Part shown: positions 45,249 to 59,090 of the stretch, piece after piece
How positions within the stretch are numbered: position 1 is the stretch's first letter
Layout of the letters: each line of letters starts with the position of its first letter
Sequence record: PZ445428.1
Strand: one strand, 5' to 3'
From: a phage
Length of the DNA: 64,000 nt
Translations under genes and position numbers: made by a program
The notes under the pieces: generated by a model
Database searches by the model: none
The model's input: the letters and a program-made list of their open reading frames with translations, nothing else
Told to the model about the DNA's origin: nothing

Positions 45249-45324
45249 ACATCCATAGCTCAATGGTTAGAGCTACCGCCTCTTAAGCGGAGGGTTCTAG
45301 GTTCAAGTCCTAGTGGGTGTACCA
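45249..45324 (+). tRNA. tRNA-Lys (CTT)
   Basis: Acceptor ACATCCA/TGGGTGT, D-arm GCTC...GAGC, loop CTCTTAA, T-arm CTAGG-TTCAAGT-CCTAG, CCA. Confidence 0.65.
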
Positions 45325-45329
45325 AATAC

Positions 45330-45668
45330 TGGGGTCTTAGCTAATCGGTTAAGCGTCATGGATAGCGGTGAATTCCGGCCTATGAAGGGAGTAACACGTA
45401 GTCTCCCAGACTCCACCAAATTTCAGTGCAGAACACGGAGCTAGCAATTCGGAAGTGCTGACGCGCGATAAGCTGCCTATGTACTTGCAAAGCGGACGTG
45501 TCCTAGACTCGGACTCTTGCACTGAAACCAATTAAACATTCTAGCGTGGTGGAGAGGGGACACCAGCTTGCCGAGGGTAGAAGCTCGTTCGATTCGAGTG
45601 AAAGAATGGTTCTCGTAAATCCGCACAAGTGATAGTAGGTTCAAGTCCTGCCTAGATTGACTTATTAT
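45330..45668 (+). ncRNA. cluster of tRNA-like / structured RNA elements, non-canonical
   Basis: Acceptor-like stems with encoded CCA (GGGGTCT...AGACTCCACCA; TTCAGTG...CACTGAAACCA) and T-arm-like motifs, but no canonical cloverleaf by hand folding. Confidence 0.35.
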
Positions 45669-45742
45669 GCGTCCATAGTTAAAAGGTATAATTTCTGGTT
45701 GCCAACCAGATGTTGAGAGTTCGATTCTCTCTGGCCGCACCA
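45669..45742 (+). tRNA. tRNA-Gly (GCC)
   Basis: Anticodon arm TCTGG-TTGCCAA-CCAGA, T-arm GAGAG-TTCGATT-CTCTC, CCA. Confidence 0.75.
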
Positions 45743-46050
45743 AATTTAGGTTTATGCTTCCTAGAGAACGTACTCCTAAATAAACAAGGCGATGAGTTTC
45801 CGGCCGGTTCTAGTCGCTGAAAATCCTCCCGACCAGGTAGGTGTAGGTAAACGAAAGTTTACTTATTAAGTAAGTCCGACACATCGGCGGGTGTGTTCTA
45901 GTATTTAAAGAAGGTCTCGCAAACTTTCTCGCTAGCATGAGTTCATAGCTCGGTGACTTACCTAATAAGTAAATTTATTAAAAATGTAATTGCTATTTAG
46001 CTTAATTCTCTGTATAATATATTTTATAAAGTGATGAGAAGGAAAGCAAA

Positions 46051-46209
46051 GTGAAATTAAAAATTGCAGATGTACTTATGTGTACTTGGGTAATTCCAAT
46101 CATAATTGTTGGTTTTAACGCAGATATACTTTCCACAGCGTGGAAGATTGTAGGGCTAAGTACAGGGTTCACAATGCTAGGGTTAAGCATGTTGTGGACG
46201 AAAAACTAA
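46051..46209 (+). CDS. hypothetical small hydrophobic peptide (GTG start)
   Basis: 52 codons after promoter and GAGAAGGAAAG; not in ORF track. Confidence 0.3.
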   Translation: MKLKIADVLMCTWVIPIIIVGFNADILSTAWKIVGLSTGFTMLGLSMLWTKN

Positions 46210-46213
46210 TATT

Positions 46214-46290
46214 CTCCGATTAGCTCAATTGGCTAGAGTACACCGTTTGGGGTGGTGGGGTTGAAGGTTCGAGTCCTTCATTGGAGACCA
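46214..46290 (+). tRNA. tRNA-Pro (TGG)
   Basis: Acceptor CTCCGAT/ATTGGAG, anticodon arm CACCG-TTTGGGG-TGGTG, T-arm GAAGG-TTCGAGT-CCTTC, CCA. Confidence 0.8.
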
Positions 46291-46305
46291 AATAAGAGGT
46301 TAATA

Positions 46306-46458
46306 ATGCGTCATTTAAATAGGCAAAAAACAAAAGCACCTAAAAGGTTTAAGACTTGGTGCGGTTGTGATAGAGAACTCGTTTCTCTAGGAGAGAAATG
46401 TTCTGTTTGTGGTGTACGCTTTGTTAAGTTCAAACAAAGATTTAAATTTGCGAGTTAG
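46306..46458 (+). CDS. zinc-ribbon small protein
   Basis: 50 aa, CGCDRE...CSVCG; its 3' end overlaps the 5' end of the next tRNA. Confidence 0.35.
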   Translation: MRHLNRQKTKAPKRFKTWCGCDRELVSLGEKCSVCGVRFVKFKQRFKFAS

Positions 46459-46526
46459 ATCTCTGGTAGAGATCACTAGTCTCATAAGCTAGTAAGAGGT
46501 CGGTTCGATTCCGACACTCGCATCCA
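46449..46526 (+). tRNA. tRNA with CAT anticodon (Met or Ile2)
   Basis: Acceptor TGCGAGT/ACTCGCA, D-arm GATC...GATC, anticodon arm CTAGT-CTCATAA-GCTAG, CCA. Confidence 0.75.
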
Positions 46527-46537
46527 AAAAGTATTAA

Positions 46538-46615
46538 GGGTTGCTAGCTCAACTGGTTTAGAGCACTGGTCTTTTAAACCATAGGTTACAGGTTCGAGTC
46601 CTGTGCAACCCACCA
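46538..46615 (+). tRNA. tRNA-Lys (TTT)
   Basis: Acceptor GGGTTGC/GCAACCC, loop CTTTTAA, T-arm ACAGG-TTCGAGT-CCTGT, CCA. Confidence 0.75.
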
Positions 46616-46619
46616 AATT

Positions 46620-46693
46620 GCTCGGTTAGTTTAATGGGAGAACCCCGTCTTTACACGGCGGTTGCGATAGTTCGATTCTATCACCGAGTACCA
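46620..46693 (+). tRNA. tRNA-Val (TAC)
   Basis: Anticodon arm CCGTC-TTTACAC-GGCGG, T-arm GATAG-TTCGATT-CTATC, CCA. Confidence 0.7.
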
Positions 46694-46717
46694 CTTAACT
46701 AAAATAAGGAATTGCAA

Positions 46718-47077
46718 ATGCAATTATCATCTAAAGTTCAAGGTTTCTTCACACATGCAACAGCAGAATTTGCTATTAGCAAGGGTTGGGACTTTGAGCA
46801 AGAACTTTCTGAGTTCTATAAAGATATAGATATGAATACACCATACATGGCCTTAGCTTCTGGACAAGAGTTCTCAGAAGGTGATCTTTTCAAGGCAAGT
46901 CAAGGCGAGGTAACGCCTGGTTTTGCCGCTTTTTGGAGTGGCTTCACAATTAAAGAAGAAGCTCCAGATGATGATGTATTTATGCAAAGCATGCACTCTG
47001 GGAGTTCTGATATGTTATTCGTTAAAGATGTACGACATATCCAAGAAGTGGTAAAAACGTATTTGCAAAATGCTTAA
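46718..47077 (+). CDS. hypothetical protein
   Basis: Start moved to ATG 7 nt after TAAGGA. Confidence 0.5.
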   Translation: MQLSSKVQGFFTHATAEFAISKGWDFEQELSEFYKDIDMNTPYMALASGQEFSEGDLFKASQGEVTPGFAAFWSGFTIKEEAPDDDVFMQSMHSGSSDMLFVKDVRHIQEVVKTYLQNA

Positions 47078-47331
47078 TTTCTTGTTATAATATTTATATA
47101 AATTGATGGGGAGAAATCCTCATCAAAGTTCACTAAGGTATTAGCTCGACCTAGGACTGGCTGCCACCAAGCACGATCCCTACGACTCGGGAGAAGTTCT
47201 AGATTAGTCCACTAGATTCAGCGGCAACTGAATAGTGTATCGGGTTTGTGAAGAGCGGGTATCCAAGCCTGGCTAATGGCACTGGGTATTACGCACACCG
47301 AGCTAATAGCCTTAGTAAACTTGAAGAATTT

Positions 47332-47406
47332 GGGCGAATAGTGTCAGCGGGAGCACACCAGACTTGCAATCTGGTAGGGAGGGTTCGAGTCCCTCTTTGT
47401 CCACCA
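47332..47406 (+). tRNA. tRNA-Ala (TGC)
   Basis: Acceptor GGGCGAA/TTTGTCC, anticodon arm CCAGA-CTTGCAA-TCTGG, T-arm GAGGG-TTCGAGT-CCCTC, CCA. Confidence 0.75.
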
Positions 47407-47412
47407 AATTTT

Positions 47413-47488
47413 GGGGTCATAGGTTATTTGGTTAAACTTACTGCCTTGCAAGCAGTAGAACTCAGTTCAATTCTGAGTGACTCCACCA
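47413..47488 (+). tRNA. tRNA with TGC anticodon (second Ala-type)
   Basis: Acceptor GGGGTCA/TGACTCC, anticodon arm ACTGC-CTTGCAA-GCAGT, T-arm CTCAG-TTCAATT-CTGAG, CCA. Confidence 0.6.
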
Positions 47489-47507
47489 AACAAATTAAGG
47501 AAATAAT

Positions 47508-47726
47508 ATGGTATTCTTAGCAGCCTCTGTAGTTCTTGCATCTTTAGCGTTAGCTATCTATTTTAGAACTGCTAAAGATTTATCTAAAGAAAAGAAAACT
47601 TTCTTTACTGATTACTCTTGGGGTGCTCCATACGCTATCAATTCTATCAGTCTAGAAGCTATGTTGATAATGGTATTCAGTGGTATAGGTTCTATCGTTG
47701 CTGGATTACTTTTTATTTCTAACTAA
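47508..47726 (+). CDS. hypothetical small membrane protein
   Basis: 72 aa, two hydrophobic segments; AAGGAAA upstream. Confidence 0.45.
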   Translation: MVFLAASVVLASLALAIYFRTAKDLSKEKKTFFTDYSWGAPYAINSISLEAMLIMVFSGIGSIVAGLLFISN

Positions 47727-47733
47727 ACAAAAT

Positions 47734-47814
47734 GGGGATGTGGCGAAATTGGCAGACGCGCTAGATTTAGGTTCTAGTCTTCGGGTGTGGGTTCGAGTCC
47801 CTCCATCCCTACCA
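47734..47814 (+). tRNA. tRNA-Leu (TAG)
   Basis: Acceptor GGGGATG/CATCCCT, anticodon arm CTAGA-TTTAGGT-TCTAG, extended variable arm, CCA. Confidence 0.7.
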
Positions 47815-47834
47815 TTTTAAAATAGGATTAATTA

Positions 47835-47999
47835 ATGTTAAAGATGCCAGTAAAACATATTTGGTTAGCTAGAAATAGGGCTACTAATGAATTTGTCTTT
47901 ATTGATACAGGAATGACATATGATCAACGAATATATGATCTTCTGTATTCCGTGTCTGCTGAAGAAGTACACAAATTAATTCTAAAAGATGCAACATAA
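47835..47999 (+). CDS. hypothetical small protein (54 aa, not in ORF track)
   Basis: ATG after TAGGA; the minus-strand track ORFs here overlap tRNAs and are rejected. Confidence 0.3.
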   Translation: MLKMPVKHIWLARNRATNEFVFIDTGMTYDQRIYDLLYSVSAEEVHKLILKDAT

Positions 48000-48001
48000 T
48001 T

Positions 48002-48094
48002 GGAAGAGCAAATCGACTTGGTGACGAAAACCGCTTGGAAAGTGGCTGACTTGTGAAAGCAGGCTTGAGAGTTCGAATCTCTCTTCTTCCGCCA
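48002..48094 (+). tRNA. class II tRNA, probably Ser (GGA)
   Basis: Acceptor GGAAGAG/TTCTTCC, candidate loop TTGGAAA, long variable arm, T-arm GAGAG-TTCGAAT-CTCTC, CCA; anticodon arm is imperfect. Confidence 0.5.
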
Positions 48095-48101
48095 AACAAT
48101 T

Positions 48102-48191
48102 GGAAGTACGGGCGTAGTGGTATGCAACTAGTCTTGAAAACTAGCCCGCTGTAGCGATATGGTGATGGTTCGACTCCATGTGCTTCCGCCA
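48102..48191 (+). tRNA. tRNA-Ser (TGA)
   Basis: Acceptor GGAAGTA/TGCTTCC, anticodon arm CTAGT-CTTGAAA-ACTAG, long variable arm, CCA. Confidence 0.7.
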
Positions 48192-48196
48192 AATCT

Positions 48197-48327
48197 TGGA
48201 ATATGCCGGAATTGGTAGACGGGACTGCCGAATAGGTTTACTAGGAACATCCACTCCTAGAAATATACCTTAAAAGCGGTTGAGTTAAATGGTCTAACTC
48301 GTGAAGGTTCAAGTCCTTCTATTCCTT
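48197..48327 (+). ncRNA. tRNA-like element, about 131 nt, non-canonical
   Basis: Perfect T-arm GAAGG-TTCAAGT-CCTTC and acceptor-like TGGAATA/TATTCCT, but no CCA and no canonical anticodon arm. Confidence 0.35.
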
Positions 48328-48434
48328 GATACATCAATGGCTCAAAGAGTAACGGTGCACCTTTCTAGAGAATTTCCTGGGCGAGAATCCAGGTGTAATC
48401 AACTAGTCGTTAGTGTGATGAGTTTCGGAGAGCC

Positions 48435-48581
48435 GCCACAATTGAAGATCATTGTCTGTTTGAGTCTACCATTTAGGGTCGTTACTTGTAGCGCCTATCT
48501 GCTAGGTCTAATCACTAGGTAAAGGCATGCAAGCTTCTAGTGTAGAGAGTTCGCTACTCCTCGATGGTTTTCAATTGTGGC
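48435..48581 (+). ncRNA. candidate structured RNA closed by a 12-bp long-range stem
   Basis: GCCACAATTGAA (48435-48446) pairs perfectly with TTCAATTGTGGC (48570-48581); the 3' arm overlaps the tRNA-His 5' end. Confidence 0.3.
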
Positions 48582-48653
48582 TATATCATAATTGGTTAAT
48601 GATCCTGATTGTGAATCAGGCCTATGTGGATTCGAGTTCCACTAGCCACCCCA
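48577..48653 (+). tRNA. tRNA-His (GTG)
   Basis: Acceptor GTGGCTA/TAGCCAC, D-arm TCAT...ATGA, anticodon arm CCTGA-TTGTGAA-TCAGG, CCA. Confidence 0.8.
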
Positions 48654-48659
48654 AATATT

Positions 48660-48734
48660 GCGTCCTTATTTCAACGGAAAGAATGTAAAGCTACGAACTT
48701 TACGATCGGGGTTCGATTCCCTGAGGATGCACCA
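48660..48734 (+). tRNA. tRNA-Arg (ACG)
   Basis: Acceptor GCGTCCT/AGGATGC, anticodon arm TAAAG-CTACGAA-CTTTA, T-arm CGGGG-TTCGATT-CCCTG, CCA. Confidence 0.8.
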
Positions 48735-48758
48735 ATTAACTTAAACAGGAAAATAATA

Positions 48759-48959
48759 ATGGCTGATTTCTGTAAAGAATGCTCTATCGATATGTGGGGC
48801 AAAGATACACAAGATCTTTCTGGTCTTATCACTGAAGCTGAAGTTAAAGAAGGCTATGGTGCTGTAGTAATCTGCGAAGGTTGTGGTATTATCCGTGTTG
48901 ATCATGAAGGCAAACGCCTTGAAGAACCTGAGCCAATCGCAACGGTTCCTGTAGAGTAA
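48759..48959 (+). CDS. zinc-ribbon small protein
   Basis: MADFCKECSID...CEGCG; start moved to ATG after AGGAAA. Confidence 0.45.
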   Translation: MADFCKECSIDMWGKDTQDLSGLITEAEVKEGYGAVVICEGCGIIRVDHEGKRLEEPEPIATVPVE

Positions 48960-48967
48960 CAAATTAT

Positions 48968-49043
48968 TGGGATGTAGATCAATTGGCAGATCGTCGGCCT
49001 CTGACTCCGAAGGTTCCTGGTTCGATCCCAGGCATCCCAGCCA
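48968..49043 (+). tRNA. tRNA-Gln (CTG)
   Basis: Acceptor TGGGATG/CATCCCA, D-arm GATC...GATC, loop CTCTGAC, T-arm CCTGG-TTCGATC-CCAGG, CCA. Confidence 0.7.
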
Positions 49044-49050
49044 AACAATT

Positions 49051-49125
49051 GGAGAATAGTGTAGTGGTTCGCACAACGGCCTTTGACTCCGTTAGTGGTA
49101 GGTTCAATTCCTCCTTCTCCTGCCA
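49051..49125 (+). tRNA. tRNA-Gln (TTG)
   Basis: Acceptor GGAGAAT/TTCTCCT, loop CTTTGAC, T-loop TTCAATT, CCA. Confidence 0.65.
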
Positions 49126-49131
49126 ATTTAT

Positions 49132-49206
49132 GCGTGATTAGTTCAGTGGCTAGAATAACTGGCTTCCAACCAGTAGACACGAGTTCGACTCTCGTATCCC
49201 GCACCA
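49132..49206 (+). tRNA. tRNA-Gly (TCC)
   Basis: Anticodon arm ACTGG-CTTCCAA-CCAGT, T-arm ACGAG-TTCGACT-CTCGT, CCA. Confidence 0.75.
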
Positions 49207-49220
49207 AATAAGGAAACGTT

Positions 49221-49442
49221 ATGCACGTTTTTGAGTTTCGTAATAAAAGCCCCAATAGACGCGTTTTGATTATTGGTGAAACATATCGAGCTTACGAGCA
49301 AGAAGATGGTTCAGTTTTACTAAACGATGAAAAGCAAGGTTATAGCTTTCATCCAGAAGAAACGTATGAAGAGTTTCGTACTAAGTTTCTTTTACCAGAC
49401 TGGCTAGCAGTAGCCGAGCAACGAGAATCCGAAGATGGCTGA
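49221..49442 (+). CDS. hypothetical protein
   Basis: 73-aa ORF after AAGGAAA. Confidence 0.45.
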   Translation: MHVFEFRNKSPNRRVLIIGETYRAYEQEDGSVLLNDEKQGYSFHPEETYEEFRTKFLLPDWLAVAEQRESEDG

Positions 49443-49599
49443 TAACCTGAAACTAAAGGTTGACAAACAGAAGAAACGTGTAGAGATTGAGCTTGGTGAC
49501 GAACGCCTAGCACTATCCTTCGAGTTTCTTCAGCAGTTGGCGATGACAGTAATGTCTGATAAGTCTCCTGTATTTGAAAAAGAAATCCCGTTGAAATGA
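49435..49599 (+). CDS. hypothetical small protein (54 aa, not in ORF track)
   Basis: ATG overlapping the upstream stop; MADNLKLKVDKQKK... Confidence 0.35.
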   Translation: MADNLKLKVDKQKKRVEIELGDERLALSFEFLQQLAMTVMSDKSPVFEKEIPLK

Positions 49600-49609
49600 C
49601 GGGTTTATT

Positions 49610-49684
49610 GCTCCTAAAGCATTGCTGGCGATGCAGTTGCCTTGTAAGCATCTGAACCGGGTTCGATTCCTGGTGGGAGCACCA
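49610..49684 (+). tRNA. tRNA-Thr (TGT)
   Basis: Acceptor GCTCCTA/TGGGAGC, D-arm GCAT...ATGC, loop CTTGTAA, T-arm CCGGG-TTCGATT-CCTGG, CCA. Confidence 0.75.
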
Positions 49685-49758
49685 AATTTAAAAATTCATT
49701 TGCCTTCTCTCTTATTTCTTGTTATAATATTTATATAAATTAATGAGAGGGAAACCAA

Positions 49759-50052
49759 ATGAAACGTTATCTTTCTGTCGTGTTCCAAACTGGTGGTCAG
49801 CGTTATACCTACGAATTTCCAGAGTCTTGGAAAATCAAAGAAGGTGATCAGGTTGTTGTACTGACACCGCGTGAAGGCTTCAAAGTGGTTACGGTTAAAC
49901 AAGTATTTCCTAAAGATCACGAACCATCTAAATCTATTAATTATAAGATGATTCATGGTCTGGTACGAAAAGTACCACGGACGGAAGTTGAAGTAGATAA
50001 AGATGGTGAAGCTAAATACCAGTATACTTCTTACCTAGACGAGATGCGATAA
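49759..50052 (+). CDS. hypothetical protein
   Basis: 97-aa ORF after promoter and GAGAGGGAAACC. Confidence 0.5.
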   Translation: MKRYLSVVFQTGGQRYTYEFPESWKIKEGDQVVVLTPREGFKVVTVKQVFPKDHEPSKSINYKMIHGLVRKVPRTEVEVDKDGEAKYQYTSYLDEMR

Positions 50053-50276
50053 TGAGAATTACCTTTACTGAGAAGATAATATGTAATGGGATTATGATCA
50101 TTACAGCGTGGGAAGGTAAACAATGGTGCAGTATAACGGGTCTTAAAGCAGAAGATCAAACACCAGAAAACATTCTCAAAATAAAACAAAACATGGCAAA
50201 ACATGCTAAACGTCCTGGTGCTCCTAGGAATGGCATACGTTTTGCAGCAAAATGCTCCGATAGTTCAAACGGTTAG
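50052..50276 (+). CDS. hypothetical protein; 3' end overlaps tRNA-Ile
   Basis: 74-aa ORF; last 7 codons overlap the tRNA 5' half. Confidence 0.4.
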   Translation: MRITFTEKIICNGIMIITAWEGKQWCSITGLKAEDQTPENILKIKQNMAKHAKRPGAPRNGIRFAAKCSDSSNG

Positions 50277-50329
50277 AACAGGCGACCGATAATCGTCAAA
50301 TCTTGGTTCGATCCCAAGTTGGAGTACCA
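50254..50329 (+). tRNA. tRNA-Ile (GAT)
   Basis: Acceptor GCTCCGA/TTGGAGT, D-arm GTTC...GAAC, anticodon arm GGCGA-CCGATAA-TCGTC, T-arm CTTGG-TTCGATC-CCAAG, CCA. Confidence 0.75.
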
Positions 50330-50373
50330 AAACAACGGAGAGTCACTACCGTAAGTGTGAAGTTGAAAAATAT

Positions 50374-50449
50374 AGTTAGTTGGCAGATCGGTTATGCACC
50401 TCCTTCATACGGAGCGATCAGAGTGGTTCGATTCCACTACTAACTACCA
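50374..50449 (+). tRNA. tRNA with CAT anticodon (third CAT tRNA)
   Basis: Acceptor AGTTAGT/ACTAACT, loop TTCATAC, T-arm AGTGG-TTCGATT-CCACT, CCA. Confidence 0.7.
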
Positions 50450-52349: not shown

Positions 52350-52622
52350 ATGAAAGAAGCAGAAATTAATGAAATGGCTAGGGTTTTCGTAGTTTCCTAT
52401 ATGCAAGGTAGCTGCAATAGTCTTTTCGATTCAGCAGTAGTATTTCAGGAAGAATTAGCTGAGAAAGGTATACATATGGAAGATACTGAAATTGAGGATC
52501 TTCTGATGGAAGCTGCAAGTAGTGCAGAAGTATTCTTGTGTGATAATTGTGGTTGGTGGTGTCCTGAGCATGACCGTTCTGAAGAAGGCTCTTACTGTTC
52601 TGACTGTGAGGGAGAAGAATAA
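52350..52622 (+). CDS. acidic protein with C-terminal zinc ribbon
   Basis: CDNCGWWCPEH...CSDCEG; 90 aa. Confidence 0.5.
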   Translation: MKEAEINEMARVFVVSYMQGSCNSLFDSAVVFQEELAEKGIHMEDTEIEDLLMEAASSAEVFLCDNCGWWCPEHDRSEEGSYCSDCEGEE

Positions 52623-52918
52623 TGAATAAGTTTACTATTGCACTGATGATTTCCGCAGTTAGTTTCAGTTCTCTGGCATCCACCAAAGTTTCTATGAAAA
52701 ATGGTAATGTTAAAGTTCAGCAGAACGGCATTACCACTGAGTATGGTAAAGTCAGATTAGTAAAGGAGCGTAATGGTAATATAGAAATTATGACCAATAA
52801 AAACTTCTCTACTCCAGCTATTACCATTCAGCGTAACGGTAATATTACTACCCAACGTTCCAACAATTCTGACTCGTTTACTTGTCGTTATGATTGTGGT
52901 GTGGAAGTAGAAGAATGA
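52622..52918 (+). CDS. secreted small protein
   Basis: Signal peptide MNKFTIALMISAVSFSSLA; NGN repeats. Confidence 0.5.
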   Translation: MNKFTIALMISAVSFSSLASTKVSMKNGNVKVQQNGITTEYGKVRLVKERNGNIEIMTNKNFSTPAITIQRNGNITTQRSNNSDSFTCRYDCGVEVEE

Positions 52919-53442
52919 TTACTCAAGAAAGGTTAAAAGAACTGCTAGAGTATAATCCTGAGACAGGACAATTTACTAATAAAATCCTAAGAGGTAGACT
53001 AAAGGTAGGTGCATTTGCAGGCACGTTAAGGTCTGATGGGTATATCCAAATAAGGCTTGATAAAAAAGCATATTATGCACAACAACTAGCTTTCCTATAT
53101 ATGACAGGTATACTTCCAGAGGAAGTTGATCACATTAATAGGATTAGGTCGGATAACAGATGGGTTAATCTTAGAGAATCTAACAGACAAGAAAATAGTA
53201 GAAATCGTAAATCCACTAGTAACTCTGGATACTTAGGTGTGTCTTGGAATACAAAGGCACAGAAATGGCAAGTAATGGTGCGAAATTCCACGGGAAATAA
53301 TATATTTGGTGGTTATTTTAACTATGAAGATTTAGATTATGCCGTTGCTAAAGCTAATGGATTACGACTAGAATTGCATGGAACTCTAGCAGTTATCGAA
53401 GAGTTTAGCGGTTTTCCACAAGAAAGAGAGAGAAGAACGTGA
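52915..53442 (+). CDS. HNH homing endonuclease with AP2-like DNA-binding domain
   Basis: EVDHINRIRSDNRWVNLRESNRQEN (HNH) and YLGVSWNTKAQKWQVMV (AP2-like); start moved to ATG overlapping the upstream stop. Confidence 0.7.
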   Translation: MITQERLKELLEYNPETGQFTNKILRGRLKVGAFAGTLRSDGYIQIRLDKKAYYAQQLAFLYMTGILPEEVDHINRIRSDNRWVNLRESNRQENSRNRKSTSNSGYLGVSWNTKAQKWQVMVRNSTGNNIFGGYFNYEDLDYAVAKANGLRLELHGTLAVIEEFSGFPQERERRT

Positions 53443-53732
53443 AAGAAATAAACTTAAACAGTTACGCGAGGATTCTAGCGACGGAACCAGTTCTGGAGTT
53501 CCTTCGTAAAGAACATACTGAATTCTGGCAAGAGTACAGCTTTGAGCATGGTTCAGAAGCAGCCGCAGCCTTTGCTAGAAAAAGAATTGACGAGTATGTT
53601 GACCCAGTAATTACTGATGGATTTATCAAGATGCCCCTTTGGGATCTGATGCAAAAATTCGGTGACACAATGGTAATGGGACGAGTTCCTTACTTCACTG
53701 AAATCTACTTTGACGAAAAGGATATTAAATGA
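53439..53732 (+). CDS. hypothetical protein
   Basis: 97-aa ORF. Confidence 0.5.
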   Translation: MKEINLNSYARILATEPVLEFLRKEHTEFWQEYSFEHGSEAAAAFARKRIDEYVDPVITDGFIKMPLWDLMQKFGDTMVMGRVPYFTEIYFDEKDIK

Positions 53733-54013
53733 TTGTTTCTCCGTTTGCTCTTTGGTTTATTATTGGTGCAGTCGTTGCGATTTACAGCTGTGTTGACGAT
53801 GTGTTCTTCTCGAAAAACAAGGCTGTATTGTTAGAGCATATGCGGCGAACTTCCTCAGATATCTTAACCTTCTTTGGTGAGGAAAAGGCATACAAGATCG
53901 CTCTAGCAATATTTATTATATTTGACACATTATTCGGGCCGGTAGCTCTCTACGGATTCTATCGTAAAACCCGCAAGATGAAACAACTCAAAGCTGAATA
54001 CTTTGGGAAGTAA
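53729..54013 (+). CDS. hypothetical membrane protein
   Basis: 94 aa, two hydrophobic helices. Confidence 0.5.
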   Translation: MIVSPFALWFIIGAVVAIYSCVDDVFFSKNKAVLLEHMRRTSSDILTFFGEEKAYKIALAIFIIFDTLFGPVALYGFYRKTRKMKQLKAEYFGK

Positions 54014-54130
54014 AGAACTCGCGTAGGACCGAGTTAGTGTCACCTACTAACGTTACGGAGGGGAGTCGTGCCCCCGACAGGCAAAAGTGGTGAGTTGGTC
54101 GCTGACCTCAATTTTAACTTAGGAGCTAAC

Positions 54131-54475
54131 ATGACTTTTCTTTTAATTATTCTTGTTGCATGGCTGTTGATCGGAGCTGGTTATGCAATTGCACTTACTC
54201 GTCATCTTGATGAATACTCCGCTGAGTGGTTTGTAAAGTATCTACGACTAGACGATAAAGCTGAATCTTTTTCTAGTGAAGATGAACGAAAAGCTGTTAT
54301 GGAAATGACCCCGAAGCAATGTTTACGTTACATGCGTGTTGTTGGCTTCTTTGGTCTATTATTCCTTGGGCCGATTGGTACTACAATCGCCCCGTACAAA
54401 GAAACAGTTGCCGACATCAAACTATGGAGAACTGCTGGATCGCTACGTCGTGCTAGAGAATTGAGTACCAAATAA
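54131..54475 (+). CDS. hypothetical membrane protein
   Basis: Start moved to ATG after TTAGGAGCTAAC; N-terminal TM helix. Confidence 0.45.
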   Translation: MTFLLIILVAWLLIGAGYAIALTRHLDEYSAEWFVKYLRLDDKAESFSSEDERKAVMEMTPKQCLRYMRVVGFFGLLFLGPIGTTIAPYKETVADIKLWRTAGSLRRARELSTK

Positions 54476-54509
54476 GATTGATCTCAAATCAACTTACTAG
54501 CAAAACAAT

Positions 54510-54545
54510 AATGACAAAGCCCAGCCTGCACTTTTGCGACTGGGC
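54510..54545 (+). terminator. intrinsic terminator
   Basis: GCCCAG...CTGGGC hairpin followed by TATTTTT. Confidence 0.45.
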
Positions 54546-54627
54546 TATTTTTGTAATAAAATTTCAGTTGCGTAGATGCCCAAAGTCTTGTATAATATGT
54601 TTATAGATTGAGGCAAAAGGATAATTT

Positions 54628-55326
54628 ATGAGAATCATTTCAAAGTTTAATGATGTTTATGATTTACAGAACAGTTTATTTGACCCCGACCGTGTTTGGG
54701 AACGTAAATCAGACGAGATTCTGGTAAAAGTAACTGAAGATGTAGAAAAGAACATCGTTCATGATCGCCAAGTATTTCAAGAAGGCTCTATGTCCTTCCG
54801 CGGTGACTTCGAGTATCATGTAAATCCACTATTCGTTGCAGGTGAAGTGTACTGGTTACATGGGTTATACTGCTGGCATCCAAAATTCAGCTTCAAAACG
54901 TTTAATCTCGATGCAGTGTTCGACAAAATGGAAGAAATGGGATTACACGCTCGCTCTTACTTACTAGACAAAAGTCGTGGTGATGTTCGAGAATCCATGC
55001 GAGATATGCTGATTGAGGCAAAACCAAAAGCAGAACGTATCTTATCTGAGCTGAGAGTACCGATTGCGTATGTGAAGGGTATTAAGAAGAACGACAACGA
55101 TGATATTCGTAACTTCGTTATTCAGACCAACATTCGTTTCCATCAGTCAGGTATTCCGTGGCAGGAAATTGAAAGTAACTTATATCGTTTACACCAAGTT
55201 CTCGAACAGTATATCTTCGGAGTGCTAGGAACTGGTGAGCCTGATATGATCACCGTATCAGATAAAGACAGGTTAGCAGCTCATGGTTTCGATACAAAAA
55301 CTTCTTTCAGGAATATGGCAAGGTAA
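54628..55326 (+). CDS. hypothetical protein
   Basis: 232-aa ORF after promoter TTGCGT-17-TATAAT. Confidence 0.55.
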   Translation: MRIISKFNDVYDLQNSLFDPDRVWERKSDEILVKVTEDVEKNIVHDRQVFQEGSMSFRGDFEYHVNPLFVAGEVYWLHGLYCWHPKFSFKTFNLDAVFDKMEEMGLHARSYLLDKSRGDVRESMRDMLIEAKPKAERILSELRVPIAYVKGIKKNDNDDIRNFVIQTNIRFHQSGIPWQEIESNLYRLHQVLEQYIFGVLGTGEPDMITVSDKDRLAAHGFDTKTSFRNMAR

Positions 55327-55732
55327 GTGGTATATTCTGGGAGCTGGACTAGCGATAGGCATCGGATTTGGTGCTTATCATCTAGTAAATAAGGTAGAGA
55401 CTTTAGCAGGAGATCTAGCGGTAGCTACTAAAAAGATCTCAACTCTAGAAACTTCCTTAAACAAGGTGAAAGCAGAGAGTGAACAGCGTGAAACACGCAT
55501 GAATCAATACTTCACTTTCCACAACATTTCACAACAAGATCTTGATAAAAAGATCGCCCAGCTTGATAAAGCTCTTAGTCGTCAAGACATTATAGCTGCA
55601 AAGCCTGGACTGGTAACATTAATAGCTAAAAAGCAGAGTAAAGAGTTCGAGGAAAGATTAGCATGTTTAACTGGAAACTTGGAATACTGCTCGCAGCCGC
55701 AATCACCGTCACAGGCTGCGCAGAAACGGTAG
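55283..55732 (+). CDS. candidate i-spanin-like protein (N-terminal TM plus coiled coil)
   Basis: TM segment WYILGAGLAIGIGFGAYHLV followed by heptad-rich region; 3' end overlapped out-of-frame by the lipoprotein gene. Confidence 0.4.
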   Translation: MVSIQKLLSGIWQGKWYILGAGLAIGIGFGAYHLVNKVETLAGDLAVATKKISTLETSLNKVKAESEQRETRMNQYFTFHNISQQDLDKKIAQLDKALSRQDIIAAKPGLVTLIAKKQSKEFEERLACLTGNLEYCSQPQSPSQAAQKR

Positions 55733-56016
55733 TACCAGAGCCGTCACATGAGTTAAAGCAAGCCCATGTGGATTGGCCTAAAGGACTTCAGCCTTGTAGC
55801 TTTGATTTCAAATTCGAAAAGAAACTAGCTACAAATGGTGAAGATGGCGTAGTAGTTGTTGTACCGTATAAAGATTGGAATATGTTAGCGAAATGTCGTG
55901 AGGCAGAATTTTCGTATATTTCAAGACTGACTAGTATGGTTTGCTTCTACCGCCAAGATTTACAAGAACAACGTTGCTTAGTTTACTATCCACCCATTAC
56001 AAATAGGAAAGATTAA
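55663..56016 (+). CDS. lipoprotein, candidate o-spanin-like
   Basis: Signal peptide with lipobox LAAAITVTGC; five further Cys; overlaps the upstream gene by about 70 nt in another frame. Confidence 0.4.
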   Translation: MFNWKLGILLAAAITVTGCAETVVPEPSHELKQAHVDWPKGLQPCSFDFKFEKKLATNGEDGVVVVVPYKDWNMLAKCREAEFSYISRLTSMVCFYRQDLQEQRCLVYYPPITNRKD

Positions 56017-56762
56017 TGTCAGTATTAGTCGGTTTACATGGTGAGGCTGGTGCGGGGAAAGATACCGTAGCAAAATTGATGTTAGAATGGTGCAATGATA
56101 CGTTCCCAACGTATTTAGCCCGCCAATACAGTTTTGCTAAACCCGTTTACGAACTTGCATCCGTAATCCTCGGGGTAACTCCAGAGTTTCTGGGAGAGCG
56201 CAGGGGAAAAGAGGTTAGTCAATGGTTTAATGTGACTCAATCTCAATTGGAGCGAGCTAGGGATGTGTGGTTTAAATACGGAATCGACAAATATGAAGAC
56301 TTCTCGTACGTTTGGCCGATTTTTGAAGGAAAATACCTTGATCCTCAGCAGCTTATCAGTCAGGAGGAAGCACTATATAGTGTATTTATCTCCCCAAGAA
56401 AGATGCTACAGCTTGTAGGTACTGAGTTAGGAAGGCAGCTGGTGCATGAACGCATTTGGCTCATAATTCTGGAGCAATCCATCGCTAAAGACGACCCAGA
56501 CGTCGCCGTAGTAACAGATGTGAGATTCCCTAATGAAGGAGAGTTGATCAGAGAAACAAATCGTCTAGATATGGATTCTCTGTTAGTAAATGTCGTACCC
56601 GCGGAACGTGAATATACTATAAAGACAAACCATCCGTCAGAAAATGGTATTCCCGTTAAATACATTACTCACGAATTTGTTAATACATTCGAGGGTATGC
56701 ACAACCTTAAACTAGAAGTAAATAACTTCTGTGACTTAGAGCTAGAACCACTAGTTGGATAA
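56016..56762 (+). CDS. deoxynucleoside monophosphate kinase
   Basis: P-loop GLHGEAGAGKDT of the T4 gp1 type. Confidence 0.6.
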   Translation: MSVLVGLHGEAGAGKDTVAKLMLEWCNDTFPTYLARQYSFAKPVYELASVILGVTPEFLGERRGKEVSQWFNVTQSQLERARDVWFKYGIDKYEDFSYVWPIFEGKYLDPQQLISQEEALYSVFISPRKMLQLVGTELGRQLVHERIWLIILEQSIAKDDPDVAVVTDVRFPNEGELIRETNRLDMDSLLVNVVPAEREYTIKTNHPSENGIPVKYITHEFVNTFEGMHNLKLEVNNFCDLELEPLVG

Positions 56763-56775
56763 TTAAAGGATCACT

Positions 56776-57375
56776 ATGACTAATAAGAAAGAAGAGAAGA
56801 CTAACCTGTTTCACACTGTTCGCCAATCTAACGAATATACCTTTTTCTTTGACGAAGAATTAGGTTCACCAGATGAGTATCGTGATCTTTCAATGATACT
56901 GATGCAGGCTGGTGAAGAAGATGAAATTAATCTGATGATTAATGGGCCTGGTGGTTATGTTGATACTGCTGCACAGCTATCTAACCTGATTGCCAACTGT
57001 CGTGGAACGGTTATTGGACACCTGCTCGGTCCTAGTGCCTCTGCTTACTGCACAATCTTCCTGTCTTGCCACGGTTGGGTTGTACATCCACATGCTACGC
57101 TTATGGGACATACGTTCTCTGGCGGATTCTGTGAGAAAGGTCAAGAAATCAAGAAAGCCTATGAATCTTACAACCAGTTCGTAGAAGATATGATGCTCGA
57201 TGTTTACTTCCCGTTCTTCTCCATCGATGAAATCGAGGATATGGTAAAAGAGAATAAAAATATCTATCTCGACAGCAAAGAAATCAATAAGCGTATTGAA
57301 GTATTGGCGAACTATCGCAAAGAGCAGTACAGTAAAGCTCAATGCCCTCATCCAGAAGAACATGGAGAAGTGTAA
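56776..57375 (+). CDS. ClpP/S14-family peptidase-like protein
   Basis: INGPGGYVDTAAQLSNLI, GPSASAYCTIFL and MGHTFSGGF align with ClpP catalytic-core segments. Confidence 0.6.
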   Translation: MTNKKEEKTNLFHTVRQSNEYTFFFDEELGSPDEYRDLSMILMQAGEEDEINLMINGPGGYVDTAAQLSNLIANCRGTVIGHLLGPSASAYCTIFLSCHGWVVHPHATLMGHTFSGGFCEKGQEIKKAYESYNQFVEDMMLDVYFPFFSIDEIEDMVKENKNIYLDSKEINKRIEVLANYRKEQYSKAQCPHPEEHGEV

Positions 57376-57385
57376 GTAATTTTAA

Positions 57386-57416
57386 GCCAGAGTTTAACGA
57401 CTCTGGCTTTTCTTTT
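57386..57416 (+). terminator. intrinsic terminator
   Basis: GCCAGAG...CTCTGGC hairpin followed by TTTTCTTTT. Confidence 0.7.
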
Positions 57417-57531
57417 GCCTAAAATTCTTCTTGACAACGATAAAAAATTGTGCTCCAGAAGTGAACTTTAAAAACACGTTGTAATTTTCCTCTAGACTTA
57501 GTATAATGGTAATGGTTAGAGGAGGTTACAA

Positions 57532-58188
57532 GTGGAAAAGTTTCTACAACTATTAACGGTACTGCTCCAAGAAGCGAAAGATCCAGCTTCGCTTCTAAAA
57601 CGTCTGCTAACTATCTTAGTTGCTGTCATTATTTTCTTATTTGTTAGTAATACTAGCGAGGTGATGTCATTTTTAAAGACTTTCTCCACGTCTGCGGTTT
57701 TACAGGATGTTCAAACCCAAAGGATCGATAACTTTCCTAATATAGCTCGAGAAAAGAGTATGGTGCTTTTCTCGCAAACGGGTGCGGATGCTGTTTTTGT
57801 AGTCAAGTATAAACCCGATGCTATTAATGATTATTCCAACATTATCGCATGGGAGAGCAATGCGCAATTAGATAGGGCTGACTTGGCCGATAAAGCAGTA
57901 AATAAGACGTCTGAAATGTATAGACGTCACCTGGAAGGCTTTAACTACGCTTCGGACTTAACTGTAAAGATTAATAAATATATGGGGGCAAATATCCCTA
58001 CGTTTAAGAACGTTACATTTAATTATATTTACACGTGTCCGTATTTCAACCTGAATAATATCTACGCTGGATATGTAGGTATTGCATGGAAGGATAAACC
58101 CGTAGATACAGCTGACTCGGAACAATTTAACGAGTACTTAACAAAGCTTTGCTCACCGCAGCAAAGATCATTAGGTAGATCTATATGA
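57532..58188 (+). CDS. holin-like membrane protein
   Basis: GTG start; N-terminal TM LLTILVAVIIFLFV; immediately upstream of and overlapping the endolysin gene. Confidence 0.5.
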   Translation: MEKFLQLLTVLLQEAKDPASLLKRLLTILVAVIIFLFVSNTSEVMSFLKTFSTSAVLQDVQTQRIDNFPNIAREKSMVLFSQTGADAVFVVKYKPDAINDYSNIIAWESNAQLDRADLADKAVNKTSEMYRRHLEGFNYASDLTVKINKYMGANIPTFKNVTFNYIYTCPYFNLNNIYAGYVGIAWKDKPVDTADSEQFNEYLTKLCSPQQRSLGRSI

Positions 58189-58598
58189 GTTTTAAATTTG
58201 GTAAAAATAGCGAAAAACAACTTGCTACTGTAAAACCCGAGCTACAAAAGGTAGCTCGGAGAGCATTAGAACTGTCTCCTTACGATTTTACTATCGTTCA
58301 AGGGATTCGTACTGTTGCTCAAAGTGCCCAAAACATTGCTAATGGCACATCATTCCTCAAAGATCCTAGTAAGAGTAAACACGTTACTGGAGATGCAATC
58401 GATTTTGCACCATATATTAATGGTAAGATTGATTGGAACGATCTTGAGGCATTTTGGGCTGTTAAGAAGGCTTTCGAACAAGCTGGAAAAGAATTGGGCG
58501 TGAAACTTCGTTTCGGGGCTGACTGGAATGCATCTAACGATTATCGTGATGAAATTCAACGTGGTACCTACGACGGTGGTCATGTAGAATTGGTTTAA
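58185..58598 (+). CDS. endolysin, M15-family L-alanyl-D-glutamate peptidase
   Basis: 137 aa; zinc-ligand motifs SKHVTGDAIDF and DGGHVEL; matches the size and family of the T5 endolysin. Confidence 0.8.
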   Translation: MSFKFGKNSEKQLATVKPELQKVARRALELSPYDFTIVQGIRTVAQSAQNIANGTSFLKDPSKSKHVTGDAIDFAPYINGKIDWNDLEAFWAVKKAFEQAGKELGVKLRFGADWNASNDYRDEIQRGTYDGGHVELV

Positions 58599-58610
58599 AT
58601 AGTAAGGTAA

Positions 58611-58631
58611 GGCGGGGTTCTCCCGCCTTTT
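58611..58631 (+). terminator. intrinsic terminator after endolysin
   Basis: GGCGGG-gttct-CCCGCC followed by TTTT. Confidence 0.65.
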
Positions 58632-58673
58632 AAAGCAAAGGGGGCTTTAATAACTTAATGATAGGAGAAAGCC

Positions 58674-59090
58674 ATGTTTGCAGAACTATTCACAATGACG
58701 CTATTAGGTATCTGGAAAATAAGTCTGATAGTGTTCGTCTTAATGATAATTTTAACTATAGTCGCACTAGTCACCCAAAATGACCTACTAAAAAGAGTCA
58801 TCCAAGGGCTAGAGTATATAATTATGGGCACATTCGGTGTTTGCAAATGTAAATGCCAGAGGAATACGAAATATTGTTGGTTATGGATGGAATTAGAAAG
58901 CTGTCTATCTGTCGCCTTGGCTGTCTCATTCGGTATGATTCTTATGGCCCTTACTCTAGCACTGATACCATTAATGCTGGCTGGGGGAGTCACGGCTTAT
59001 TTCACTCTTTTCTCCCCTATACTTATGTATTCAATCTACCCAATCACTATGTTCTTAGTGAGGAAGAGATTCCCGCATATTGCACATTAA
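58674..59090 (+). CDS. hypothetical multi-pass membrane protein
   Basis: 138 aa, three or four TM segments; AGGAGAAAGCC upstream. Confidence 0.5.
   Translation: MFAELFTMTLLGIWKISLIVFVLMIILTIVALVTQNDLLKRVIQGLEYIIMGTFGVCKCKCQRNTKYCWLWMELESCLSVALAVSFGMILMALTLALIPLMLAGGVTAYFTLFSPILMYSIYPITMFLVRKRFPHIAH

What the first reader, a model, noticed from the sequence alone, without database searches (positions are those of the whole stretch)
55283..56016. Candidate overlapping i-spanin / o-spanin pair upstream of the holin-endolysin genes
A 149-aa protein with an N-terminal TM helix and coiled-coil region is overlapped out-of-frame at its 3' end by a 117-aa lipoprotein (lipobox VTGC, several Cys). This is the Rz/Rz1-type overlapped architecture, located about 2 kb upstream of the holin-like and endolysin genes.
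Basis: inference. Interest (0 to 1): 0.55.

Follow-up and report, generated by a model that had tools for sequence, protein, structure and literature searches.

The report
Known T5-family overlapping spanin gene pair
The two overlapping genes are the already annotated inner- and outer-membrane spanin genes of a T5-like coliphage, which break the host's outer membrane in the last step of lysis; this is an ordinary, published feature.

Summary
The window is 100% identical to Escherichia phage TrudiGerster (Bas27, MZ501108, Demerecviridae, Epseptimavirus). Its GenBank record already calls 55283-55732 'i-spanin' and 55663-56016 'o-spanin', at exactly these coordinates. Kongari et al. 2018 (PMC6139136) define a 'T5 family' of overlapped two-component spanins. 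It includes EPS7, the name-giving phage of this genus, and has the same 70-bp overlap.

I confirmed:
- a 149-aa protein with a Gly-rich N-terminal membrane helix and a heptad-repeat helix;
- a 117-aa lipoprotein precursor, lipobox ITVTG|C with Ala at +2, read in the +2 frame;
- PHROG hits to 'Rz-like spanin' families (E 3.5e-37 and 8.4e-29);
- conservation of both reading frames and of gene order across four Demerecviridae genera;
- homology of both proteins to the experimentally validated T4 spanins PseT.3 and PseT.2, including the two o-spanin cysteines that are essential in T4.

The pair is not a sequence relative of lambda Rz/Rz1, and its architecture is 'overlapped' (the P2 lysB/lysC class), not 'embedded' as in lambda. 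I found no direct experiments on T5-family spanins, so their function rests on homology and topology. Interest is low.

The parts
55283..55732 (+). i-spanin gene (149 aa). Short cytoplasmic N-terminus with K6 and K15, a Gly-rich membrane helix at about residues 16-35, a periplasmic heptad-repeat helix at about 36-79, a second helix at 84-98, the conserved AAKPGLV motif at 105-111, and the conserved Cys pair C128/C136. The tail 137-149 is variable.
   Evidence: ORF. Annotated i-spanin QXV85191.1. phrog_739, E 3.5e-37. Hydropathy. AlphaFold helices. Alignment with T5, phiR2-01, My1, GlastoCabaret and the T4-like PseT.3 proteins. BLASTP against T4 PseT.3, E 1e-4.
55663..56016 (+). o-spanin gene (117-aa precursor). 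Signal peptide 1-18, lipobox ITVTG|C with Cys19, then Ala at +2 and Glu at +3, so no Asp inner-membrane retention signal. The mature protein is 99 aa with Cys45, Cys78, Cys94 and Cys105. The C-terminal motif MVCFYRQDLQEQRC is shared with T4 PseT.2.
   Evidence: ORF. Annotated o-spanin QXV85192.1. phrog_812, E 8.4e-29. Lipobox match. tblastn reaches the pseT.2 gene of T4-like phages. BLASTP against T4 PseT.2, E 5e-7. Invariant columns G18 C19 H35 W38 P39 C94 Y96 R97 C105.
55663..55732 (+). 70-nt dual-coding overlap. It encodes i-spanin residues 127-149 (ACLTGNLEYCSQPQSPSQAAQKR) and o-spanin residues 1-23 (the signal peptide, the lipobox and the first four mature residues). The o-spanin ATG is nested in the i-spanin Ala127-Cys128 codons (GCATGT).
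   Evidence: The same nested junction is present in LVR16A, T5, My1 and GlastoCabaret, with overlaps of 70, 70, 34 and 88 nt. The first roughly 45 nt are almost invariant between TrudiGerster, LVR16A and T5. The 70-bp overlap in T5 is published.
55646..55651 (+). Shine-Dalgarno-like GAGGAA for the o-spanin, 11 nt upstream of its ATG, lying inside the i-spanin 'EFEERL' codons.
   Evidence: Sequence. The GAGG/AGGAG element is conserved in the five phages compared.
54534..54562 (+). Weak sigma-70-like promoter match upstream of the 232-aa ORF. This is the probable start of the transcription unit that carries the spanin genes. Inferred.
   Evidence: Consensus scan, 9 of 12 matches, and the number of such sites in the region does not exceed the shuffled expectation. 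T5 has an annotated promoter at the equivalent place, upstream of T5.047.
54628..55326 (+). Conserved 232-aa protein of unknown function (T5.047 homologue). It is the first gene of the unit and overlaps the i-spanin start by 44 nt. It is a neighbour, not shown to take part in lysis.
   Evidence: phrog_4243, E 8.9e-112, function unknown. No membrane segment. Syntenic in all Demerecviridae examined.
56016..57375 (+). dNMP kinase (56016-56762) and Clp-like protease (56776-57375), co-oriented between the spanin genes and the holin gene. The kinase ATG shares one base with the o-spanin stop (TAATG).
   Evidence: PF21448 at 4.8e-10 and PF00574 at 4.4e-7. PHROGs. Annotation.
57384..57409 (+). Intrinsic-terminator-like hairpin (11-bp stem followed by a T-rich tail) that ends the spanin-containing unit.
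   Evidence: T5 has an annotated rho-independent terminator at the equivalent position, after T5.042.
57532..58598 (+). Holin of the T4 gpt type (57532-58188) and M15 L-alanyl-D-glutamate peptidase endolysin (58185-58598). They are the functional partners of the spanins and have their own promoter-like site at 57479-57507.
   Evidence: PF11031, E 5e-114, and PF13539. phrog_860 and phrog_465. Promoter scan.

Best explanation
These are the two-component spanin genes of a T5-like phage, Escherichia phage TrudiGerster.

The 149-aa protein is a type II inner-membrane protein (N-terminus in, C-terminus out). Its periplasmic part is mostly helical and partly coiled coil. The 117-aa protein is exported through Sec, lipidated at Cys19, cleaved by signal peptidase II and sorted by Lol to the inner leaflet of the outer membrane, because it has no Asp at +2.

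The two periplasmic domains bind each other through the peptidoglycan mesh and so form a bridge across the periplasm. The complex is stabilised by homotypic disulfide bonds. In T4 these involve the counterparts of Cys94 and Cys105 of the o-spanin. The i-spanin Cys128/Cys136 pair and the o-spanin Cys45/Cys78 pair are specific to the T5 family.

Once the T-type holin has permeabilised the inner membrane and the M15 endolysin has removed the peptidoglycan, the complexes are free to cluster and collapse. That brings the inner and outer membranes together and fuses them, which removes the last barrier to phage release.

Shown here: the gene structure, the targeting signals, conservation of both frames, synteny, and homology to T4 PseT.3/PseT.2. 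Inferred from the lambda and T4 literature: localisation, complex formation, the disulfide pattern, membrane fusion and the lysis phenotype.
For: - Identity of the window with MZ501108 (100%) and its annotation of i-spanin and o-spanin at these coordinates.
- phrog_739 at 3.5e-37 and phrog_812 at 8.4e-29, both 'Rz-like spanin'.
- Lipobox and membrane-segment signals and a helical model of the i-spanin.
- The o-spanin finds pseT.2 of T4-like phages in a database-wide tblastn: Pm5461 at 1e-5, PEi26 pseT.2 at 7e-4. In those phages the gene is preceded by pseT.3.
- Pairwise BLASTP against T4 PseT.2 gives 5e-7 and against PseT.3 gives 1e-4.
- C94 and C105 are invariant and align with T4 C87 and C98. 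Those two cysteines are essential for lysis in T4, and T4 pseT.3/pseT.2 complement lambda RzamRz1am (PMC6139136).
- The T5 RefSeq record notes similarity of T5.044 and T5.045 to T4 PseT.2 (Swiss-Prot P39503, P39504).
- The T5 spanin family, which includes EPS7 and My1, is published with a 70-bp overlap. The BASEL authors annotated spanins with the SpaninDataBase tool.
- The gene order hyp232, i-spanin, o-spanin, dnk, Clp protease, holin, endolysin is conserved in Epseptimavirus, Tequintavirus, Sugarlandvirus and Myunavirus.
- The nested start codon is conserved in all five phages compared.
Against: - I found no experiment on any T5-family spanin in the searchable literature. Function therefore rests on homology to T4 (21-30% identity) and on topology signals.
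- The i-spanin membrane segment is Gly-rich and falls just under the classical hydropathy cut-off (1.55 against 1.6). Dedicated predictors such as TMHMM, SignalP and LipoP could not be run.
- The genes are not adjacent to the holin and endolysin genes. They sit in a unit with a nucleotide kinase, so context alone would not point to lysis, although T4 pseT.3/pseT.2 are likewise unlinked from t and e.
- The single-sequence structure model of the o-spanin was uninformative (pLDDT 42).
Confidence: 0.93

Rival explanations
1. The 117-aa lipoprotein is not a lysis protein. Instead it is a receptor-blocking or superinfection-exclusion lipoprotein, like T5 Llp or the Cor proteins, and the 149-aa membrane protein is an unrelated early protein.
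For: T5-like phages are known to encode such a lipoprotein, Llp (mentioned in PMC4342426). The genes lie in a unit with an early-type nucleotide-metabolism gene, ahead of the terminator at 57384. The mature protein is Cys-rich and larger than lambda Rz1.
Against: The o-spanin is homologous along its whole periplasmic domain to T4 PseT.2, including the two functionally essential Cys. It is always paired with a PseT.3 homologue, in T5-like and in T4-like phages alike. A profile of the family matches the only 'phage lipoprotein' in the PDB (9rps_D) over the signal peptide alone, at a non-significant E of 0.82.
Confidence: 0.03
2. The out-of-frame 117-aa ORF is a chance open frame or an annotation artefact, and only the 149-aa gene is real.
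For: Overlapping ORFs are often spurious. Many records leave one or both genes as 'hypothetical protein' or miss them altogether.
Against: The protein is conserved at 85-93% identity across hundreds of Epseptimavirus and Tequintavirus genomes. It is conserved at 42-49% identity in Sugarlandvirus and Myunavirus, with the lipobox and all Cys kept. Substitutions in the o-only part are mostly synonymous: 20 against 13, and 30 against 9. It has its own SD sequence. In phiR2-01 it persists as a free-standing gene after a homing endonuclease gene separated the pair (PMC6139136).
Confidence: 0.01
3. The pair is a real periplasm-spanning complex, but its main role is something other than outer-membrane disruption at lysis, for example envelope remodelling early in infection.
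For: It appears to be co-transcribed with dNMP kinase, ahead of a terminator that separates it from the holin and endolysin unit. No lysis phenotype has been reported for T5-family spanins.
Against: T4 pseT.3/pseT.2 sit in a comparable non-lysis context, yet they are functionally equivalent to Rz/Rz1 in lambda complementation (PMC6139136). Spanins in lambda accumulate harmlessly before holin triggering, which is established knowledge, so early synthesis is compatible with a lysis role.
Confidence: 0.03

Closest known systems
T5 family of two-component spanins (T5.045/T5.044; EPS7, DT57C, AKFV33, SPC35, Stitch, FFH1, My1, and the separated versions in phiR2-01 and Shivani) as defined by Kongari et al. 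2018, PMC6139136
   Same: Direct membership. The proteins are 84% (i-spanin) and 91% (o-spanin) identical to those of T5. They have the same 70-nt overlap, the same nested start codon, the same Cys pattern and the same neighbours. EPS7, the name-giving phage of the Epseptimavirus genus to which this phage belongs, is a listed member.
   Different: Only details differ. The first 15 or so residues of the i-spanin differ from T5, because T5 has an HNH endonuclease gene (hegF) inserted just upstream, whereas here the 232-aa ORF overlaps the i-spanin start. The i-spanin tail 137-149 is variable.
[quoted passage not shown]
   Same: Distant homologues. They share the TMD plus helix plus KPGLV motif in the i-spanin. 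In the o-spanin they share the HxxWP motif and the C-terminal M-x-C-Y/F-Y-R-x-x-L-x-E-x-K/R-C motif, which carries the two cysteines essential in T4 (PMC6139136). Both pairs are unlinked from the holin and endolysin genes. Both phage groups use the T-type holin (PMC12894885).
   Different: The T4 genes count as 'separated' in spanin nomenclature (abutting ORFs; 4-nt stop/start overlap in NC_000866); here 70 nt are shared. T4 PseT.3 has no periplasmic Cys, while the T5-family i-spanin carries a C-terminal extension with two conserved Cys. The T5-family o-spanin has two extra Cys, at 45 and 78, and a C-terminal tail. Identity is only 21-30%.
Lambda Rz/Rz1
   Same: The same functional logic: a type II inner-membrane protein with a coiled-coil periplasmic domain, an outer-membrane lipoprotein encoded in the +1 register (called the +2 frame elsewhere in this report), and periplasmic Cys available for intermolecular disulfides.
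   Different: No detectable sequence similarity: no match to any lambda Rz or Rz1 family appeared among the Pfam hits. Rz1 is completely embedded within Rz, and mature Rz1 is a 40-aa proline-rich, unstructured peptide. Here only the signal peptide is shared, and the mature o-spanin is 99 aa with predicted secondary structure. In lambda the spanin genes are part of the late lysis cassette.
P2 LysB/LysC
   Same: The same architectural class ('overlapped'): the o-spanin gene starts inside the 3' end of the i-spanin gene and extends beyond it.
   Different: P2 LysB/LysC belong to a different sequence family in the published classification. I did not compare the sequences directly.

Membership tests
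Two-component spanin (functional class) | The i-spanin is a type II integral inner-membrane protein with a single N-terminal TMD, positive charge on the N-terminal side and a periplasmic C-terminal domain. | tested here: met
   There is one hydrophobic segment, residues 16-35, with K6 and K15 before it. Its Kyte-Doolittle score of 1.55 is borderline because it contains 6 Gly. The segment is conserved in T5 and related phages, and an equivalent segment is present in T4 PseT.3. No dedicated predictor was available.
Two-component spanin (functional class) | The periplasmic domain of the i-spanin is helical with coiled-coil propensity. | tested here: met
   AlphaFold single-sequence model: helix at 23-79 with pLDDT 84-93 over 41-70, and a second helix at 84-98. 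Uninterrupted a/d heptad V38 L41 L45 A48 I52 L55 L59 V62, read from the sequence. Weak Pfam hits only to coiled-coil families.
Two-component spanin (functional class) | The o-spanin has a signal peptidase II signal with a lipobox and an outer-membrane sorting signal (no Asp at +2). | tested here: met
   LLAAAITVTG|C matches the lipobox core. Cys19 is followed by Ala at +2 and Glu at +3. G18 and C19 are invariant in all seven homologues.
Two-component spanin (functional class) | The o-spanin gene is embedded in, overlapping with, or immediately downstream of the i-spanin gene. | tested here: met
   70-nt overlap in the +2 frame.
Two-component spanin (functional class) | Periplasmic cysteines are available for homotypic intermolecular disulfides. 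| tested here: met
   The i-spanin has C128 and C136. The mature o-spanin has C45, C78, C94 and C105. All are conserved within Demerecviridae. Which disulfides actually form was not tested.
Two-component spanin (functional class) | The pair is required for outer-membrane disruption: a lysis block with spherical cells, or complementation of lambda RzamRz1am. | not testable with these tools
   No experiment on T5-family spanins was found. It has been shown only for the distant homologues T4 PseT.3/PseT.2 (PMC6139136).
T5 spanin family (Kongari et al. 2018) | Sequence similarity of both proteins to T5.045 and T5.044. | tested here: met
   84% and 91% identity to T5. phrog_739 and phrog_812.
T5 spanin family (Kongari et al. 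2018) | Overlapped architecture with a 70-bp shared region that encodes the o-spanin signal sequence. | tested here: met
   The overlap is 70 nt here and in T5. The published value is 70 bp.
T4 PseT.3/PseT.2 superfamily | The C-terminal Cys pair of the o-spanin (T4 C87 and C98), essential for function in T4. | tested here: met
   C94 and C105 align with T4 C87 and C98 and are invariant columns. BLASTP E 5e-7.
T4 PseT.3/PseT.2 superfamily | Significant similarity of the i-spanin to PseT.3. | tested here: inconclusive
The pairwise BLASTP E value of 1e-4 may be inflated by coiled-coil composition. K107, P108 and L110 (within the KPGLV motif) and L94 are invariant across eight sequences. The database-wide tblastn listing showed no T4-like hit among the rows printed, although five Aeromonas phage records are counted.
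Lambda Rz/Rz1 sequence families | A match to the Pfam families for lambda Rz or Rz1. | tested here: not met
   No such family appeared among the Pfam hits at E up to 0.1. The pair is a functional analogue, not a sequence-family member.

The most novel reading that the evidence does not exclude
The most novel reading still open is that T5-family spanins work through a hybrid disulfide scheme. They keep the T4-type essential Cys pair in the o-spanin (C94, C105). They also have a conserved Cys pair at the i-spanin C-terminus (C128, C136; lambda Rz also has periplasmic Cys) and a further o-spanin pair (C45, C78). The first i-spanin Cys codon is physically fused to the o-spanin start codon (GCATGT) in every genus examined. 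That would lock the two genes together and could explain why the overlap has survived across Demerecviridae. This would be a variant within a known mechanism, not a new kind of system.
Probability: 0.3. Interest if true: 0.2.

Novelty: already known. Interest (0 to 1): 0.07.

Why it matters
It matters little beyond correct annotation. Spanins are the third, outer-membrane step of lysis in Gram-negative hosts, and this pair belongs to a published family. It is already labelled as such in the database record of this exact phage.

Two points have some practical value:
- Many related records still call one or both genes 'hypothetical protein' or give the wrong start, so the family could be propagated more consistently.
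- T5-family spanins have apparently never been tested experimentally. Their six conserved periplasmic cysteines make them a reasonable system for comparing the lambda-type and T4-type disulfide requirements.

Tried and rejected
- Pfam and NCBIfam scans of both proteins gave nothing specific, only sub-threshold coiled-coil or FtsL-like noise for the i-spanin and nothing at all for the o-spanin.
- A PDB sequence-profile search with the o-spanin alignment found no solved relative. The best hit, at E 0.82, covers only the signal peptide of a phage lipoprotein.
- The single-sequence AlphaFold model of the o-spanin had pLDDT 42 and was not used. I ran no fold search, because a low-confidence model gives meaningless matches.
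- I deliberately did not spend the large protein-database searches (search for homologous proteins, the search of protein representatives). The identity and the family were already settled by cheaper evidence.
- The promoter scan is no better than shuffled expectation (10 sites found against 12.8 expected). Only the terminator at 57384 and the promoter-like sites that coincide with features annotated in T5 were used.
- The repeat scan of 54400-58700 found only short matches at chance level.
- The whole-window Rfam scan found only tRNAs.
- A literature search for experiments on T5 spanins returned only the 2018 bioinformatic paper.
- The chance-ORF reading and the Llp-like exclusion-lipoprotein reading were considered and rejected (see the rival explanations).
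Full report
**What is there.** The ORF listing and the raw sequence show an ATG ORF at 55283-55732 (149 aa). A second ATG ORF at 55663-56016 (117 aa) lies on the same strand in the +2 frame and shares 70 nt with the first. The minus strand carries only short ORFs of 46 aa or less in this stretch.

The 117-aa product begins MFNWKLGILLAAAITVTGC. It has one Lys in the n-region, a hydrophobic core with a Kyte-Doolittle score of 1.91, and a lipobox that fits the PROSITE-type core pattern. Cys19 is followed by Ala and Glu, so there is no Asp at +2 to retain the protein in the inner membrane. Four further Cys lie at 45, 78, 94 and 105.

The 149-aa product has a single Gly-rich hydrophobic segment at about residues 16-35. 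Its score of 1.55 is slightly below the customary 1.6. K6 and K15 precede it. A long helix follows, with a regular a/d heptad pattern (V38 L41 L45 A48 I52 L55 L59 V62). A single-sequence AlphaFold model places a helix at 23-79 with pLDDT 84-93 over residues 41-70, and a second helix at 84-98.

**Where the window comes from.** Megablast of 54600-58700 gives a 100% match over its full length to Escherichia phage TrudiGerster (Bas27, MZ501108; Demerecviridae, Markadamsvirinae, Epseptimavirus). About 450 T5-like phage records match at 80-90% identity. In MZ501108 the two ORFs are annotated at exactly these coordinates as 'i-spanin' (bas27_0152) and 'o-spanin' (bas27_0153). The paper describing the BASEL collection, whose Bas numbering this phage carries, states that spanins were annotated with the SpaninDataBase tool (PMC8594841). 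RefSeq records of relatives such as LVR16A, Sepoy, Eps7 and T5 call both genes 'Rz-like spanin'. The genome announcement for Sepoy mentions 'an overlapping spanin pair' (PMC6658699).

**Published family.** Kongari et al. 2018 (PMC6139136) list a 'T5' family among the overlapped i-spanin and o-spanin families. Its members are T5, EPS7, Stitch, SPC35, AKFV33, FFH1, DT57C and My1, plus the separated versions in phiR2-01 and Shivani. They state that the T5 spanins overlap by 70 bp. In phiR2-01 and Shivani a homing endonuclease gene of about 700 bp separates the pair. I saw the same arrangement in phiR2-01.

**Family assignment by my own tests.** PHROGs gives phrog_739 (E 3.5e-37) for the first protein and phrog_812 (E 8.4e-29) for the second. 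Both are 'Rz-like spanin' in the lysis category. Pfam and NCBIfam have nothing specific, and no match to a lambda Rz or Rz1 family appeared.

A tblastn of the o-spanin finds 554 phage records. These include Sugarlandvirus and Myunavirus phages at 42-46% identity. At the weak end it finds the pseT.2 gene of T4-like phages: Proteus phage Pm5461 at 1e-5 and Edwardsiella phage PEi26 at 7e-4. In those phages the hit is preceded by pseT.3 and flanked by alc and pseT, as in T4 itself.

Direct BLASTP against T4 PseT.2 gives E 5e-7 at 29% identity over the whole mature domain. Against PseT.3 it gives E 1e-4. That second value should be read with care, because both proteins are coiled coils.

In the multiple alignments the invariant o-spanin columns are G18, C19, H35, W38, P39, C94, Y96, R97, L100, E102 and C105. 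C94 and C105 correspond to T4 C87 and C98. Kongari et al. showed that both are essential for lysis, and that pseT.3/pseT.2 complement lambda RzamRz1am. The i-spanins share an invariant K-P-x-L core, which reads AAKPGLV in this phage. The T5 RefSeq record already notes the similarity of T5.044 and T5.045 to T4 PseT.2 (Swiss-Prot P39503, P39504), so this link is not new either.

**Both frames are real.** The o-only part evolves mostly by synonymous change: 20 synonymous against 13 non-synonymous changes versus LVR16A, and 30 against 9 versus T5. The i-only part behaves likewise, at 40 against 16 and 46 against 35.

In the overlap, the first 45 nt or so are almost invariant among TrudiGerster, LVR16A and T5. 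This stretch encodes the i-spanin ACLTGNLEYCSQPQS and the o-spanin MFNWKLGILLAAAI. Differences cluster in the last 25 nt, which encode the variable i-spanin tail. tblastn alignments of the i-spanin typically stop at residue 136, the second Cys.

The o-spanin ATG is nested in the i-spanin Ala/Ser-Cys codons (GCATGT or TCATGC). Its SD (GAGG or AGGAG) lies in the preceding i-spanin codons. Both features hold in all five phages compared, from four genera, although the overlap length varies: 70, 70, 70, 34 and 88 nt.

**Context.** The gene order is a 232-aa unknown protein, i-spanin, o-spanin, dNMP kinase, Clp-like protease, T-type holin and M15 endolysin. It is conserved in Epseptimavirus, Tequintavirus, Sugarlandvirus and Myunavirus.

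A strong terminator-like hairpin lies at 57384-57409, just after the protease gene. A promoter-like site at 57479-57507 precedes the holin gene. Both coincide with features annotated in T5. The spanin genes therefore appear to be transcribed with the kinase and protease from a promoter upstream of the 232-aa ORF, separately from the holin and endolysin genes. This transcription unit is an inference. The promoter scan as a whole does not exceed chance. T4 pseT.3/pseT.2 are likewise unlinked from t and e.

**Mechanism.** The following is inferred from the lambda and T4 systems. The i-spanin is anchored in the inner membrane. The lipidated o-spanin sits in the inner leaflet of the outer membrane. 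Their periplasmic domains form a disulfide-stabilised complex threaded through the peptidoglycan. After holin triggering and degradation of the peptidoglycan by the endolysin, the complexes oligomerise, collapse and fuse the two membranes.

The T5 family differs from T4 in three ways. The i-spanin has a C-terminal extension with two conserved Cys (C128, C136), the o-spanin has two additional Cys (C45, C78), and the genes overlap.

**Rivals.** A chance ORF is excluded by conservation. An Llp-like exclusion lipoprotein is unlikely, given full-length homology to PseT.2, the obligatory pairing with a PseT.3 homologue, and no similarity to the PDB 'phage lipoprotein' beyond the signal peptide (E 0.82). 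A role outside lysis cannot be formally excluded, because I found no experiment on T5-family spanins.

**Verdict.** The feature is already known and already annotated in this exact genome. Interest is low.

Noticed in passing
L003:3001-3330 (Klebsiella phage GlastoCabaret OR896840, 83536-83865): The annotated o-spanin CDS (83710-83865, 51 aa) starts too far downstream and lacks the signal peptide. The ORF starting at L003:3001 (MRNWKYGLLLSAAIIASGC...) carries the lipobox and overlaps the i-spanin by 88 nt. Many other T5-like records leave one or both spanin genes as 'hypothetical protein' or unannotated.
   Followed up: partly
L007:1457-1834 (Yersinia phage phiR2-01 g039): The annotated i-spanin starts inside the membrane segment (MGAGLAVGVGF...), so its start codon is probably miscalled. 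In this phage an endonuclease gene (g038) separates the two spanin genes, as described by Kongari et al. 2018.
   Followed up: partly
window 55283-55326: The i-spanin start overlaps the end of the conserved 232-aa ORF (54628-55326; phrog_4243, function unknown) by 44 nt. In T5 an HNH endonuclease gene (hegF) sits between the two homologues, and the T5 i-spanin has a different N-terminal cytoplasmic tail.
   Followed up: partly
window 58674-59090: A 138-aa protein with two to three strongly hydrophobic segments (Kyte-Doolittle scores up to 3.09) is encoded directly downstream of the endolysin gene. It matches phrog_5944 (function unknown) and is conserved in T5-like phages. Its position next to the holin and endolysin genes raises the question of a role in lysis regulation, for example as an antiholin or in lysis inhibition. 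This was not tested.
   Followed up: no
window 52894-53442: An HNH homing endonuclease (phrog_99, E 4e-60; annotated 'putative homing endonuclease' from 52915) lies among small genes of unknown function. Homing endonuclease insertions differ between T5, phiR2-01 and this phage in the neighbourhood of the spanin genes.
   Followed up: no
window 35525-50449: A large tRNA block typical of T5-like phages. ARAGORN finds 29 genes, including one with a Ser-type ACT anticodon call at 35525-35598. Rfam also finds 29, including one at 44172-44243 that ARAGORN missed, but it does not report ARAGORN's tRNA-His at 48577-48653.
   Followed up: no
window 52622-52918; 53729-54013; 54068-54475: Small conserved proteins of unknown function upstream of the spanin unit: one with a signal-peptide-like N-terminus (98 aa, phrog_4821) and two with two membrane segments each (94 aa, phrog_5265; 135 aa, phrog_5468). 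The two-membrane-segment homologues in T5 (T5.049, T5.048) are annotated only by their transmembrane content; the 98-aa protein's T5 counterpart was not established.
   Followed up: no
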